Source: Felis catus (lineage: Eukaryota). From it: DNA of 64,000 nt. The stretch is taken from contig NC_058368.1 of assembly GCF_018350175.1 (NCBI RefSeq), forward strand, positions 76,014,001 to 76,078,000, written 5' to 3'. A model generated the notes under the pieces. It ran no database searches and was not told where the DNA came from. It saw only the letters and a list, made by a program, of their open reading frames with translations. This document shows, in pieces, positions 13,321 to 64,000 of the stretch (the first letter of the stretch is position 1; every line of letters starts with the position of its first letter). The position numbers and the translations under genes are program-made.

Positions 13321-13403
13321 TGTCTATTTTCTTGTCTTTATTTTGCTTTTATAATTTCTTAAAATGGGTTGTTATGGTGCTTTTATAATTTCTTAAAGTG
13401 GGA

Positions 13404-13940
13404 TGTTATGATGCATTTGATATGGGCCAAACTGACTCTGCCAAACTACGGCCCCCAGAATTCCATGGGCCAAACTGACTCTGCCGAACTACGGCCCCCA
13501 GAATTCCATCTGTTGTAAGTTTCCATCCAGGGGGGAGATCCTCCCAGGGAGATTCTCTCGAAGAGAATCAGGGAAAGAAGGACAACAGCTGCCATTTGGT
13601 AGTGTGCATGTACCTTTTCTTGCTCTTCCATCAAATGCTATTCCAGGTGCTGCTGTAGAGATCCAGAGAGAGGACTGAGGTCCCAAATCAGTTGATTTTG
13701 ATTGATTAAGTGGAATATTGTGCTTCCTGGGCCTGACTTAATCAGGTGGAGACTCCAGGAAGAAAGACCAAGTCCTCCCTGAAAGTCAGAGACTCTGAGT
13801 AGCAGCTGTGCTGGCAATTACTCTCTCTTCTCCTCCTTGATGCCCACCTGCAGACGTCAAGTTCAAGTCCATGTTCCTGGGATTTCAGCCTGCTCACTGG
13901 TATGCCCTCCTCTACTGGCCCTACTTCTCTGATTGAATAA
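13404..13940 (+). mobile_element. ERVL solo LTR, MLT2-like
   Basis: CATCAAATGCTATTCCAGGTGCTGCTGT, AATCAGTTGATTTTG and GGGCCTGACTTAATCAGGTG resemble MLT2 blocks. Confidence 0.7.
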
Positions 13941-34250: not shown

Positions 34251-34558
34251 AAAACAAGAATAGCCATATGCCAACACCATCGTATGTTCTATAAACATAT
34301 TTTCTATTTCTGGTAGCCTTGCTACTTAGTACGACCTACTCACGGCACAGAGATTGTACAATGATACACTGAATCGACTGCTGCACGTTGGGGCACAAAT
34401 CTAAACGAATCACAACTGTAATCAAAACAACCCCTTGTGCTTGTATACCAAACATCCTGAAGCTCGTTGGGGTGCAAGGCACATCCTACTAGGGCCCCTT
34501 CAAGGGTCTGCAGCCGCTTTGCCAGCTCCTGAACTCTGAGCACTGTGATTAATTTCAC

Positions 34559-34613
34559 AAGGTAACCGCAAGGTAACCGTAAGGTAACCGCAAAGGTAAC
34601 CGCAAAGGTAACC
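34559..34613. repeat. 11-12 bp tandem repeat, 5 copies of AAGGTAACC(GCA)
   Basis: Copies start at 34559, 34570, 34581, 34593, 34605. Confidence 0.95.
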
Positions 34614-35502: not shown

Positions 35503-35731
35503 TTCTTTTTTTAAATTTTTTTTCTTAATGTTTTTATTTATTTTTGAGACAGAGAGAGACAGAGCATGAGCAGGGAAGGGGCAGAGAGAGAGGGAGATAC
35601 AGAATCGGAAGCAGGCTCCAGGCTCTGCACCATCAGCACAGAGCCCGATGCGGGGCTTGAACTCACAGACTGTGAGATCATGACCTGAGCCGAAGCCAGA
35701 CGCTCTACCGACTGAGCCACCCAGGCGCCCC
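35503..35731 (-). mobile_element. felid CAN-SINE
   Basis: TSD AAAAATAATTTGCTTTT. Confidence 0.96.
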
Positions 35732-57200: not shown

Positions 57201-58049
57201 AAGGCTAAGTTTCTACAAAAGAAATGTTTGAATCTGTGCTCATTCATTTTCACGGCCATGTCGGCATGGAAGTAATCTCTTTTATCAGCGTGGAAAATGT
57301 CAAGCTTCACTTTCTGTTTGGGAGAGCTTTGGGAACCAGCAGGTGCTACGACTGCAGGGAACATACTAGAACTCACAGGTTAAGTGACCAGCCCAAGAGC
57401 ACACAGAAAGGAACGACTACTTTGCAGTAGATCCCATATCTCCTTGCTACCATTCTCAAAGTGTAAGTACAAAGACATGCTATCATCAGGGAACATGAGC
57501 TTTAAGACGTATCCTGAAAAACTAATTTTAGGATTTTTTTTGCAATTAAATCTCTCCAGTTAAAATTTTGCAGAAGTAGCCAAAAGCTACATTTAAACAA
57601 AACAAACATAACCAAATGGAAAGTAAAACATAGACATCCCTGACATTACATTGATAAAGCAAATGTTCTGGGTGGCAGCCAGAAATTTGTAACGTTCGTG
57701 CAGGTGCCGTCTGTTGTCAGACACACATTTTTCTTTTTCTTTCATGTTAGTGCACGTATGTCTTCTTATATTTGTCCAGTGCAGTCTCTTTTCTACTATC
57801 TGTGAAACACGACATAAGTAGCAAGGGCAAGCAAATGAAATTTTAGCATTTAATTAGCCAAAATATAAAAGCTTCGTATCTACTGATAAATTTTCACAAA
57901 TCAAGAAAAAGTGATTTTAAAATACCCCAGTGCACAATAATGAAGAACTCACGTCCGAGCATAGGACAGTGAGGGAAGACTGTGAACTCAGTTCCTCTTG
58001 CACAGAAGACAAGGACCCACCAGCTTTTGGTAAAGTGGTAAAGTGGCTT

Positions 58050-58885
58050 TGAAGGCGGGTTCCATAAAGCGGCCTAGAACTCAGGTTCTGGTAAGGCATC
58101 CTAAAATGCGGGTTCCAGTAGAGCGTCCTGGAATGGTTGCTCTGGTAAAGGACCTAGAATGCCAATTCCAGTAGAGCTTCCTGAACTCGGGTTCCGGTAG
58201 ATTGGCCTGGAACGCTGGTTCCAGTAAAGCAACCTAGAACGCGGGTTCCAGTGAAGTGACCTAGAACACGGGTTCCAGTAACCTGACCTAGAATGCAGGT
58301 TCTGGTCAAGGTTCTAGAATGCCAATTCCAGTAGAGCGTCCTGAACACGGGTTCCAGCAGATCAGCCTGGAACACCGGTTCTGGTAAAGCGACCTAGAAT
58401 GTGGGTTCCGGCAAAGCGGCCCAGAACACCGGTTCCAGTAACCTGACCTAGAATGAGGGTTCTGGTAAAGCGGCCTGGAACATGGGTTCTGGCAAAGTGC
58501 CCTAGAACATGTTTTCCAGTAAAGCAGCCTAGGATGTGGGTTCCGGTAAAGTGACCTAGAATGCAGGTTCCAGTAACCTGACCTAGAATGCAGGTTCTGG
58601 TAAAGAACCTATAATGCTGATTCCAGGAAAGCGTCCTGAACACATCTTCCAGTAAGTGGCCTAGAACACAGGTTCTGGTAAAGCAACCTAGAACGCGGGT
58701 TCTGGTAAAGTGCCCTAGAATGTGTCTTCCAGTAAAGCAGCCTAGAAGACGGGTTCTGGTAAAGCGGCCTAGAACACGGGTTCCAGTAAAGCGACCTAGA
58801 ACCCGGGTTGTGCTAATGTGACCTAGAACGCGGGTTCTAGTAACGTCAGGTTCTAGCACGCAGGTTCTGGTAACCTGACCCAGAG
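58050..58885. repeat. 27-bp minisatellite, about 31 diverged copies
   Basis: Consensus approx. GGGTTCYRGTAAAGCGRCCTAGAACRC; 9-aa periodicity (TGTRVLGRF) in the minus-strand ORFs. Confidence 0.95.
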
Positions 58886-58902
58886 CACTTTCTCGGGACC
58901 AT

Positions 58903-59781
58903 ACTTTCTGCAGAAGAGTGACTGAATTGAGTTGTCTGCTAAATTGAATTGAAAGCTAAAGTGGCTTTCCCTTTGAAAAGGAATCGGATGTTATAGTGAC
59001 TCTTGTCGCAGAGCATTAAACAGCTCGCCCCAAATAAAGCACTTCAGGGGATGGCGTGACATCTGTAAAGTGTGAGGAGAAAATATTCACTTTCGCCTCA
59101 GCAAAAAGCACCACCTTGATGCTGAGCTCCTATGTGGGCCATTGAACAGGACTCAGTCAGATGCAGCCTGCAGGCCGGCAAGGGAGTTCTCAGCCCATCG
59201 CGTAAAGAGAAATCGAGAAAGGAAAGCAGACATAGCCTAAAAATTAAAAAGGCTATCGTAGACACGGCATGCAAAAACACATATTTTAGGCAAGAATATG
59301 CTAATGGCTGAGGGAAAAAATAATATACCAAAGTTTACATAAAATCGAGGCTAAGAGTGACAACATGTATTTGATAGCAAATCTATTGGAGGGTATTGGT
59401 GAATACAAAGCTGAATCCAAACAGAACAGTCATATTTCACAAAGCTCCGATTATGCTTATCTATGACTGTTTACGTTGTTTGGCTAATTCAATCCATAAC
59501 AAGAGTCCAGTGACCCAGGAACATAACTGTACTTCCCCTGCTGAGGCACGGTTGGGTATCTGTTGTCATTCCTTTGCAAGTTCTTGCAGTACCCACGTTT
59601 TCCAAGAGTAAATGTTTCCTCCATAAACTTTATAGCTGTCACGCCATCCCTGACGTGCTTCACGTAGGGCGAGCTGTTTAATGCTCTTCTACAAGAATCG
59701 CTATAACATCCTAATTTTTTCCAAATGGAAAGCCATTTAGCTTTCAATTCAATCCAGACTGGTTACTCTTCTGCAGAAAGT
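58903..59781. repeat. diverged inverted duplication (arms 58903-59091 and 59607-59781)
   Basis: Collinear exact reverse-complement blocks of 17 nt (58903-58919/59765-59781), 18 nt (58943-58960/59736-59753) and 21 nt (59010-59030/59667-59687). Confidence 0.93.
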
Positions 59782-59798
59782 TTTCAAAATTCCATGTT

Positions 59799-59801
<3 letters not shown>

Positions 59802-59839
<38 letters not shown>
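59802..59839. repeat. (CA)n microsatellite
   Basis: Read directly from sequence. Confidence 0.95.
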
Positions 59840-59841
<2 letters not shown>

Positions 59842-60779
59842 GTGCGCGCCCGCAGACACACCCATCCCACGGAGCAACTGTAGTAACCGCCCTTTATTAG
59901 AAGCAAAGTTGACAGAAGAATTATAGAAACTTAGAAAATGTTATTTGGGTATGTGCTGATGTGGAATCTGAGACGTTCTGAAAATAATAACATGGATTCT
60001 AACCCACACGAGAGATCAGGCCCATATATAACAGTATGGCACAAGGACAGTGAGGGGTCCCTGGAAGAGACCTGTCAGAACTGAGATCCTATAGGAAGGC
60101 ATGACACTCTGGATGAGACATTTCGCCAGCCCGCCAGGGACGAGGAATTAGAAGTTAGTACCTGAAGCCCTCTAGATATTATATGCATTGAATATATAAA
60201 ACAAAATAGTAATGACTTTGTAACTCATATGATACGATATGGATTCTATACACCTAAAGTTATTCTCTTTTGTGATCTCTATAAAATCCATAGCAAATAT
60301 TGGATTCTTTAGATTATTACATAAAACACTTGGGCTTTGTGGATGTTAATTCTCTAAGAAAGTCAGGTTTTGACAAAAATTGGACAGAAACATATTAGCG
60401 ACATCCCTTAAAAGAAATTTCCCAGAGTGCGATTTGATCTAAGCGCCCCTCGTATGACTGCCTTAGACAGTCCCACGACACAACTCTTATAATAGAAGAA
60501 TTATTGGTAACAACTTCTTTTACTTTCAGTTTTGTTCTGGTTTCGAAAATAAATGATGTGGTGACTGCTTCCATAGCCAACCACTCTTCGGTGCCTTCAT
60601 TGTACACTGCAGATAGAGCACTTAGCTGGGTAATCCTGGACTGCAAACTTAAAGCAGGCAAAAAGTCACCTAGAGGAAACATTTAAACATAGATGATTGG
60701 GCTACAACCACAGATATGATGTTATAAAAAGCTTGAGGTGAGAGGATTTGGGGAAGACAAGGCATAGGAAGTACCAGAG

Positions 60780-62185
60780 ATCTGTTTTCCCACACAAACA
60801 TTGCACTGGCTGCATCTGATCCAACTATTTTGAAACTCTGGAGTCTCCTGGAGGCTGGCAGCATCGGGAAGAAGTCTTGGACAGTAAATCGTGGTTGATC
60901 TCGGTCACTATAAGCTCTTAGCACAGCGACAGCTACCCACCCTCCACCGCTCAGCTCCACAGCAAGCAGCTGTGCACGTATCCCTAAAGCAGCTTTGCAC
61001 ACAGCTTACAAAAGCCAGGGCAGGCCACAAAAGGACTCCAAACCTTGGGGACCCGTGGCCTGATCACTGACTGCTGCTTCTGATCACAGAAGTGAACACA
61101 AAGGGGCAGTAGCCATCTCCATTGTACTTCCCTCCACGGCAGCAAAGCCCTCCCCTCTGGCGGAGGTCACTTCCAAGGGATTTAAAGGGCAACATCTTTA
61201 CCTCCCACCTTCATTCTTAGATTTTTTCCCCCTTTGGGGAGCCAGGCATACAAGAGCAGAACACTCAAAGGCAACAGGATATATGGGGAAATTAGAAAGT
61301 CAGCATTCACACACAGGGGAACACAGAGGCTGCAGGGAAGACCCAAGAGCTTACGTTTACACTCAGGCTGCTACTCACCATAGAGAGAGTAGACAGCAAT
61401 CAGAACAATAAAAACAGAAAAGGTAAACCCTGGAGAATGGAGACAAATGATATCTAGCGTTGCCATCTTATTAGATTGGAGCATCCAACGTTCAATGAAG
61501 AAATCACAAGTCATACGAAGAAACAGAAAAAGTGTGGCCCATTCAAAGGAAACAAAAACAACAACAGAAACTGTCCCTTAAAAAAAAAATCTGATCGTGC
61601 ATCTACTAGACAAACATTAATTTAAAAAAAAACTGTCTTAAAGATGTTTTAAAAACTAAAAGAAGATGGGGAGAAAGTCAAGAAGATGATGTATAACCAA
61701 AATGCAAATACCAATAAAGAGAAAAATCTAAAGAGGGGTACCTGGGTGGCTCAGCGGGTTACGCGTCAGACTCTTGGTTTTGGCTCAGGTCACAATCTGA
61801 CGGTTCATGAGTTCGAGCCCCGAGTCAGGTTCTAAGGTGACAGCACAGATCCTGCTTGGGATTCTCTCTCTCCCACTTTTTCTGCCCCTCCCCTGCTCAC
61901 TCTCTTTCTCTCAAAATAAATAAACTTAATTAAAAAAAAAAAAAAAGAGAAATCAAACAGAAATTCTGGAGCACAACGGTGCAATGACCCAAGTAAAATA
62001 CCGTCTAGAACAATACAAAGGCAGACGCGGGTAAGCAGAAGGAAGACCCCACAATTCTGGGCACAAAATGACAGGGCTTGCTGGGTCTAGGAAACAGAAA
62101 TAAAAACACTAAACAAGAGTGAACAGAGCCCAAGGGACCTGTGGGGCACAGGTGAGCAGACGACCACATGCTCTAGTACTCCCAG
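60780..62185 (+). mobile_element. old L1 5' region/ORF1 remnant
   Basis: GAAACAGAAAAAGTGTGGCCCATTCAAAGGAA; AAACAGAAATTCTGGAGC; GAACAGAGCCCAAGGGACCTGTGGGGCAC; 5' boundary uncertain. Confidence 0.75.
61735..61946 (+). mobile_element. CAN-SINE
   Basis: GGGGTACCTGGGTGGCTCAG head, A tail. Confidence 0.94.
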
Positions 62186-63715: not shown

Positions 63716-63832
63716 GTGTGTGTGTGTGCATGTGTATGTGCGTGCACGTGTATGCATGCATGTGTGCATGTGTTTGTGCGTGCGCGCGTGTGTGTGCGTG
63801 TGTGTGTGTGTGTGTGTGCGCGCGTGTATGTG
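63716..63832. repeat. compound (TG)n/(CG)/(CA) alternating purine-pyrimidine tract
   Basis: Read directly from sequence. Confidence 0.95.
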
Positions 63833-64000
63833 TTGGAAGGTCTCTGAGGAGGCTTTTTCCTAATGTGATCGATACAAACCATTATACCAAATAATTAGGC
63901 AAACAAGTACCAGTCCACTGAAACCTGAGCTATCTGATTTTGTTACACTCTGATTAAAGTAAGTGGAATTTAGGACATTGATTTTGAAAATAAAGAGAAA

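What the first reader, a model, noticed from the sequence alone, without database searches (positions are those of the whole stretch)
58903..59781. Old ~190-bp inverted duplication of non-SINE sequence with a ~515-bp spacer
Seen: 58903-59091 aligns collinearly with the reverse complement of 59607-59781, roughly 75-80% identical by eye, with exact blocks of 17, 18 and 21 nt. Weaker similarity may extend inward (GCCTCAGCA and TGGG(C/T)CA(T/C)TG(A/G)AC at ~59095-59152 vs ~59505-59548). I do not recognise the arm as a SINE, LINE or LTR, and I see no TSD. It lies between the 27-bp minisatellite and a (CA)n tract. Inference: it could be (a) long terminal inverted repeats of an ancient DNA transposon, (b) a duplicated regulatory element, or (c) a long-range RNA duplex that loops out the spacer and could be an ADAR substrate or affect splicing.
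Basis: partly seen in the sequence, partly recalled or inferred. Interest (0 to 1): 0.7.

Follow-up and report, generated by a model that had tools for sequence, protein, structure and literature searches.

The report
Old decaying inverted duplication, cat genome
A stretch of about 180 bases in apparently non-coding cat DNA has a backwards copy about 500 bases away, probably made by one old DNA-copying accident, and the two copies appear to be drifting apart like neutral DNA, so it looks ordinary.

Summary
The inverted pair is real: 58903-59091 matches the reverse complement of 59607-59781 at 149 of 189 columns (E 2e-38; 0 of 200 shuffles as good). The suggested inward extension is chance.

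Chance ORFs from unnamed public assemblies gave five homologous clusters, probably from other mammals. One (P0007) runs from the left flank through arm 1 into the spacer, lacks the 27-bp minisatellite and the cat's 12-nt arm insertion, and is no more conserved in the arm (44/63 residues) than in flank and spacer (55/80). It is as close to cat arm 2 (40/58) as to cat arm 1, so the copy arose shortly before that split.

There is no element-wide target-site duplication, no transposase signal, no Rfam hit and no strand bias in G-U pairs (7 vs 8). No read-level test was obtained, so transcription and editing are open. No repeat library or cat genome could be searched, so copy number is inferred.

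Best reading: a local inverted duplication by replication template switching, roughly 55-75 million years old (inferred), decaying neutrally in a probable gene desert. Two cat changes that re-match the arms hint weakly at occasional conversion.

The parts
58903..59091 (+). Arm 1 (189 nt); probably the original copy (inferred). Carries about 12 extra nt near 58922-58942 that the homologue P0007 lacks
   Evidence: P0007 is contiguous from left flank through arm 1 into the spacer
59607..59781 (-). Arm 2 (175 nt), inverted copy of arm 1; probably the inserted copy (inferred, weak)
   Evidence: arm 2-spacer junction also in P0001, P0002-4, P0005/8/9
59092..59606 (.). Unique spacer, 515 nt; its two halves are not homologous
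   Evidence: 87 of 200 shuffles as good; conserved like the arms in homologues
59597..59602 (+). Left copy of a 6-bp direct repeat bracketing arm 2 (possible small target duplication; borderline)
   Evidence: 81 of 1500 random edge pairs as good
59780..59785 (+). Right copy of the same 6-bp direct repeat, overlapping the last 2 nt of arm 2
58020..58887 (+). 27-bp minisatellite (about 30 copies); later insertion or expansion, absent from the P0007 homologue; not part of the duplication
   Evidence: 58051-58843, period 27, 29.7 copies; 868-nt jump
59417..59483 (+). Small imperfect hairpin inside the spacer (18 pairs); picked post hoc
   Evidence: 5 of 200; z -3.87, 1 of 200
59487..59762 (-). 92-codon stop-to-stop frame over arm 2 and spacer; chance ORF, used only as a probe for homologues
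   Evidence: codon phase 11/6/9, p 0.48
59802..59839 (+). (CA)19 tract just outside arm 2; unrelated neighbour

Best explanation
A one-off, local inverted duplication of unique DNA, with no function of its own. During germ-line replication or repair the growing strand left its template, copied about 180 nt lying about 500 nt behind it from the opposite strand, and returned, leaving arm - spacer - inverted arm (template switch; mechanism inferred, not shown). Arm 1 is probably the original and arm 2 the copy (weak inference). The event happened shortly before the cat lineage split from the species that gave P0007, roughly 55-75 million years ago (inferred from K2P 0.167 +/- 0.034 and a recalled cat-dog neutral distance near 0.2). 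The arms have since drifted mostly independently, and a minisatellite later grew beside arm 1. Shown: the pair, its sharp edges, homologues with the same junctions, equal divergence of arm, spacer and flank. Inferred: mechanism, age, species, single copy, intergenic position.
For: Both ends sharp, no inward or outward extension. P0007 aligns across left flank (20/30), arm 1 (44/63) and spacer (35/50), Fisher p 1.0 for arm vs rest; arm 2-side homologues show arm vs spacer 12/14 vs 31/40, 9/12 vs 31/40, 7/12 vs 32/49. P0007's arm matches cat arm 2 at 40/58, about as well as cat arm 1. Of 23 arm differences it covers, 9 have the arm 1 state, 6 the arm 2 state, 8 are uninformative, as expected if the copy is slightly older than the split and cat arm 1 then moved away. 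Only 5 homologous clusters in four protein searches. G-U-compatible changes 7 on plus, 8 on minus; fold -359.5 vs -358.5 kcal/mol. No Pfam hit above cut-off in 290 of 307 unmasked ORFs of 55 aa or more. Local template switches make reverse-complement copies within tens to hundreds of bp (PMC9435742, passages).
Against: All cross-species evidence comes from short translated chance ORFs of unnamed species, not DNA alignments, and the counts are small. Only P0007 shows a flank, so the other four clusters could be paralogues. Low copy number had no positive control and only about two of six frames were probed. Two cat-lineage changes make the arms match each other (arm 1 at 59086; the arm 2 partner of 59060) and site 59065 is homoplastic, which strict independent drift does not predict. 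Length (175-189 nt) and spacing (515 nt) are at or above the upper end of reported short-range switches (longest 97-180 bp outside repeats, 318 bp overall; PMC9435742). The 6-bp repeat around arm 2 is only borderline (81 of 1500). CpG o/e is somewhat higher here (0.51-0.74) than in the window (0.37), on 4-12 CpGs per part.
Confidence: 0.62

Rival explanations
1. Relic of a low-copy non-autonomous DNA transposon with long terminal inverted repeats (Mutator-like or foldback type), or two opposite insertions of one small low-copy repeat.
For: Two co-terminal arms of about 180 nt around a 515-nt interior fit the shape; MULE TIRs are commonly hundreds of bp (PMC6446971, passages). Arms of one element are identical at insertion, which also fits P0010 carrying arm 2-type states on the arm 1 side. 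Dfam could not be searched.
Against: No direct repeat around the whole unit (1025 of 1500 random edge pairs as good) where MULEs have 8-11 bp. No transposase or Pfam hit in the frames scanned. Only 5 homologous clusters. Arms have no inverted ends of their own (6 and 5 matches in 20) and no poly-A run.
Confidence: 0.15
2. A selected RNA duplex: a long non-coding transcript crosses both arms, forms about 150 bp of double strand and is edited by ADAR or steers processing; pairing is partly maintained.
For: Arms would pair at 152-154 bp, -217 to -222 kcal/mol, close to the medians of edited non-repetitive human dsRNAs (144 bp, -184.8 kcal/mol, loop 509 nt; PMC11838218 Table 1). Two cat changes re-match the arms.
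Against: No strand preference. Arms no better conserved than spacer. At least 6 substitutions and a 12-nt insertion in cat arm 1 break pairing. No Rfam match. Base rates are low: 4,597 edited vs 492,832 unedited non-repetitive human dsRNAs, and over 99% of all predicted dsRNAs have phastCons below 0.5 (PMC11838218).
Confidence: 0.1
3. A duplicated cis-regulatory element: arm 1 was an enhancer in a developmental gene desert and both copies are kept for their binding sites.
For: Probable position in the desert upstream of EFNB2 (inferred from earlier notes, and recalled human gene order); CpG somewhat retained.
Against: Arms diverge like flanks and spacer; identical blocks are not clustered beyond chance.
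Confidence: 0.1

Closest known systems
Short-range template-switch mutations (Loytynoja 2022, PMC9435742, passages read; Monttinen et al. 2023, PMC10710096, passages read)
   Same: [quoted passage not shown]
   Different: Here the copy (175-189 nt) and distance (515 nt) are at or above the reported upper range, the event is old, and the pre-event allele is not in hand.
Non-repetitive predicted dsRNAs / inverted duplicated sequences (PMC11838218 and PMC7006430, passages read)
   Same: Two unique-sequence arms within a kilobase, about 85% paired; size, energy and loop resemble the edited non-repetitive class.
   Different: No evidence here of transcription or editing; probably intergenic. Such pairs are common and mostly unedited and unconserved.
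Non-autonomous Mutator-like elements (PMC6446971, passages read; the mammalian family Ricksha appeared there only in the reference list, details recalled)
   Same: Long inverted ends around a short interior.
   Different: No 8-11 bp TSD, no transposase remnant found, no sign of many copies.

Membership tests
Mutator-like DNA transposon (non-autonomous) | Long terminal inverted repeats | tested here: met
   175-189 nt arms; shape only
Mutator-like DNA transposon (non-autonomous) | 8-11 bp target-site duplication outside the TIRs | tested here: not met
   (1025 of 1500 random pairs as good); age could have eroded one
Mutator-like DNA transposon (non-autonomous) | DDE transposase or remnant inside | tested here: not met
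   not every spacer frame was scanned, and non-autonomous copies can lack it
Mutator-like DNA transposon (non-autonomous) | Many dispersed copies | tested here: inconclusive
   2 copies in window; 5 homologous clusters; no genome held, no Dfam
Pair of SINE or MITE insertions | Pol III boxes and poly-A tail, or own TIRs, on each arm | tested here: not met
   no A7 run, no self-TIR; only scattered one-mismatch hits to recalled box motifs; no similarity to the window's 29 SINE-like intervals
Short-range template-switch duplication | [quoted passage not shown] | tested here: met
Short-range template-switch duplication | Switch points within tens to hundreds of bp | tested here: inconclusive
   515-nt spacer and 175-189 nt copy lie at or above the upper range in PMC9435742
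Short-range template-switch duplication | Ancestral one-arm allele explains the junctions | not testable with these tools
   no homologue spans the outer edge of arm 2
Conserved ADAR-edited dsRNA | Arms can form a long stable duplex | tested here: met
   follows from the repeat itself
Conserved ADAR-edited dsRNA | Both arms in one transcript | not tested
   no reads or contigs were laid
Conserved ADAR-edited dsRNA | A-to-I edits in the arms | not tested
   no reads or contigs were laid
Conserved ADAR-edited dsRNA | Arms more conserved than spacer and flanks | tested here: not met
   (protein-level proxy, small counts)
Conserved ADAR-edited dsRNA | Covariation or strand-biased G-U retention | tested here: inconclusive
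   G-U 7 vs 8; two re-matching changes vs at least 6 breaking ones plus an insertion; no DNA alignment

The most novel reading that the evidence does not exclude
The arms still exchange information tens of millions of years after the duplication: occasional conversion or template switching across the 515-nt loop, or weak selection on pairing in a rare nuclear non-coding transcript edited by ADAR, re-matches sites. It would be a datable case of a functional or self-repairing long duplex born from unique desert DNA.
Probability: 0.1. Interest if true: 0.45.

Novelty: new member of a known kind. Interest (0 to 1): 0.15.

Why it matters
Little, on the best reading: mammalian genomes hold very many such unique-sequence inverted pairs (about 497,000 predicted in human, PMC11838218). 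It is a clean, datable example that could serve in a survey of how long such pairs last and whether arms convert each other. It would matter more only if editing or covariation were shown.

Tried and rejected
Own-genome search: no genome held. Rfam: 1 gathering hit in the window, a tRNA-like match inside a SINE at 35642-35726; 0 matches at E up to 1 in 58885-59486. Coding origin of the arms: 92-aa frame has no PDB relative (1 hit, E 1.8), codon phase 11/6/9 is not significant, and the homologues sit in two different frames; rejected. P0006 (3072 aa, bacterial cadherin-like domain) is a chance hit and was dropped from the cluster count. Metagenome scan by protein patterns: 318 pattern matches, 0 confirmed. 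Metagenome scan by a 20-mer: 4 loci, 0 of 4 extend beyond 21 nt, all with microbial CpG content. Viral contigs: 0 matches. Sequencing-run search: 4 rows on record as RNA (share 0.24-0.51, metatranscriptomes) and 2 guessed RNA rows (0.32-0.35) hold part of the stretch; none was laid, so they are not evidence of transcription. The bacterial promoter scan is irrelevant to a mammal. Inward extension, outward extension and arm-spacer homology rejected. Literature: seven searches; only aimed at this locus, and none of its 3 listed papers appeared by title and abstract start to describe this element. The dsRNA tables S2 and S7 of PMC11838218, which might list a human orthologue, were not seen: only one supplementary PDF is held and I did not read it.

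Full report
Observation. It far exceeds chance (0 of 200 shuffles). The proposed inward extension does not (87 of 200 and 59 of 200), and the outer flanks beyond the minisatellite and the CA tract are not homologous (23 of 100). The 26 substitutions are 15 transitions and 11 transversions, K2P 0.167 with SE 0.034. Fourteen of 24 listed runs, from 6 studies of one organism, hold every sampled word, so an assembly artefact is unlikely.

Setting. No genome is held for this window. The window has 29 SINE-like self-repeat intervals. Earlier, unchecked notes call this genome cat and place ABHD13 2.25 Mb and MYO16 2.93 Mb beyond the window, LMO7 25.8 Mb before it. With human gene order recalled from memory, this puts the window in the desert between SLC10A2 and EFNB2; that is inference. 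In agreement, 290 of the 307 unmasked stop-to-stop ORFs of 55 aa or more gave no Pfam hit above cut-off (3 sub-threshold hits). Left out were ORFs in self-repeats, those at the terminal GT tract, a few overlapping the right half of the spacer, and the shortest at the length cut. Short exons and non-coding transcripts would be missed.

Homologues. A 92-codon chance frame over arm 2 and the spacer was used as a probe. Four protein searches returned five unnamed homologous clusters: P0001 and P0002-4, P0005/8/9 and P0007, P0010; one search returned only its query. A sixth hit, P0006, is a bacterial repeat protein and was dropped. These are translations of non-coding DNA: they lie in two different frames and cross cat stops and frameshifts. 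Their species are unknown. By simulation 70% residue identity is about 15% and 62% about 20% nucleotide difference, which for P0005, P0007 and P0010 fits dog-level or somewhat deeper relatives under neutrality (calibration recalled).

What P0007 shows. It aligns to the left flank (57930-58019), jumps 868 nt over the minisatellite, and continues through arm 1 into the spacer. So the minisatellite is younger than the duplication and unrelated to it, and the left flank, arm 1 and spacer have the same order in both species. Identity is 20/30 in flank, 44/63 in arm, 35/50 in spacer (Fisher p 1.0). The three arm 2-side clusters give 12/14 vs 31/40, 9/12 vs 31/40 and 7/12 vs 32/49 for arm vs spacer. 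No excess conservation of the arms is seen, on small counts. P0007's arm lacks the cat's 12-nt insertion, keeps both single-base insertions of arm 1, and matches cat arm 2 at 40/58. Of 23 of the 26 arm differences that could be read, 9 have the arm 1 state, 6 the arm 2 state and 8 are uninformative. This is the pattern of a duplication a little older than the split, followed by separate drift. P0010 joins the inner arm to the left spacer but has 6 arm 2 states, 3 arm 1 states and 2 uninformative of 11, so it branches earlier and many arm 2 states are ancestral.

Results against this reading. At 59086 both arm 1 homologues imply a different base from cat, and cat now matches arm 2. At the arm 2 partner of 59060 all three arm 2-side clusters imply a different base from cat, and cat now matches arm 1. 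Site 59065 varies in both arms. Two re-matching changes among a handful is a weak hint of conversion or of pairing selection; template switching can repair stems (PMC8794818, abstract and opening paragraphs). Against that, at least 6 substitutions and a 12-nt insertion in cat arm 1 break the match. Only P0007 shows a flank, so the other clusters could be paralogues, and the low-copy inference had no positive control.

Transposon reading. MULEs have long TIRs and 8-11 bp TSDs (PMC6446971, passages). The whole unit has no flanking direct repeat (1025 of 1500 random edge pairs as good), the arms have no own TIRs or poly-A, and no transposase-like protein was found in the frames scanned. It works like a local duplication and is not filed as a MULE. 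A low-copy family cannot be excluded without Dfam.

RNA reading. If transcribed, the arms would pair at 152-154 bp and -217 to -222 kcal/mol, close to the medians of edited non-repetitive human dsRNAs (144 bp, -184.8 kcal/mol, 509-nt loop; PMC11838218, passages with Table 1). That follows from the repeat and is not evidence of use. Both strands fold alike (-359.5 and -358.5), G-U-compatible differences are 7 and 8, Rfam has no match, and only 4,597 of 497,429 such human pairs are edited. Inverted duplicated sequences are abundant in pre-mRNA and depleted mainly when long, near-perfect and in mRNA (PMC7006430, passages). No reads were laid, so transcription, strand and editing remain open.

Mechanism. 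The simplest route is a replication or repair template switch: the nascent strand copies about 180 nt from the opposite strand about 500 nt back, then returns (PMC9435742 and PMC10710096, passages). Length and distance are at or above the reported upper range, so a microhomology-mediated templated insertion is equally possible. Arm 2 is bracketed by a 6-bp direct repeat (81 of 1500 random pairs as good; arm 1, 210 of 1500), a weak hint that arm 2 is the inserted copy.

Verdict. A real, old, probably single-locus inverted duplication that looks neutral; a new member of a common kind. Confidence 0.62; low-copy transposon 0.15; selected RNA duplex 0.10; duplicated enhancer 0.10. Interest 0.15. 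Other papers named in the searches were seen only as listings.

Noticed in passing
window 58020-58887: The 27-bp minisatellite is absent from the P0007 homologue (868-nt jump). Its first units share an exact 12-mer (58039-58050) with arm 1 (13 of 1941 random window pieces score as well), so it may have been seeded by a short local copy of arm 1 sequence.
   Followed up: partly
window 59417-59483: Small 18-pair hairpin of pre-miRNA size inside the spacer (z -3.87, 1 of 200 shuffles; no Rfam match); chosen post hoc.
   Followed up: partly
window 59799-59861 and 63716-63833: A CA tract and a GT-rich tract form a second, simple-repeat inverted pair 3.9 kb apart.
   Followed up: no
window about 60700-61730: Reads like an old L1 5' end and ORF1 start, interrupted by a SINE at 61726-61963; resemblance recalled from memory, not tested, no Pfam hit.
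   Followed up: no
window 13344-13509: Two adjacent short tandem duplications, periods 34 and 43, at 90% and 97% match.
   Followed up: no
window 34558-34613: 11-12 bp tandem array of about 5 copies, 91-93% match.
   Followed up: no
L001-L003: Three microbial metagenome contigs share the same chance 21-mer context and look like copies of one locus; unrelated to the finding.
   Followed up: no
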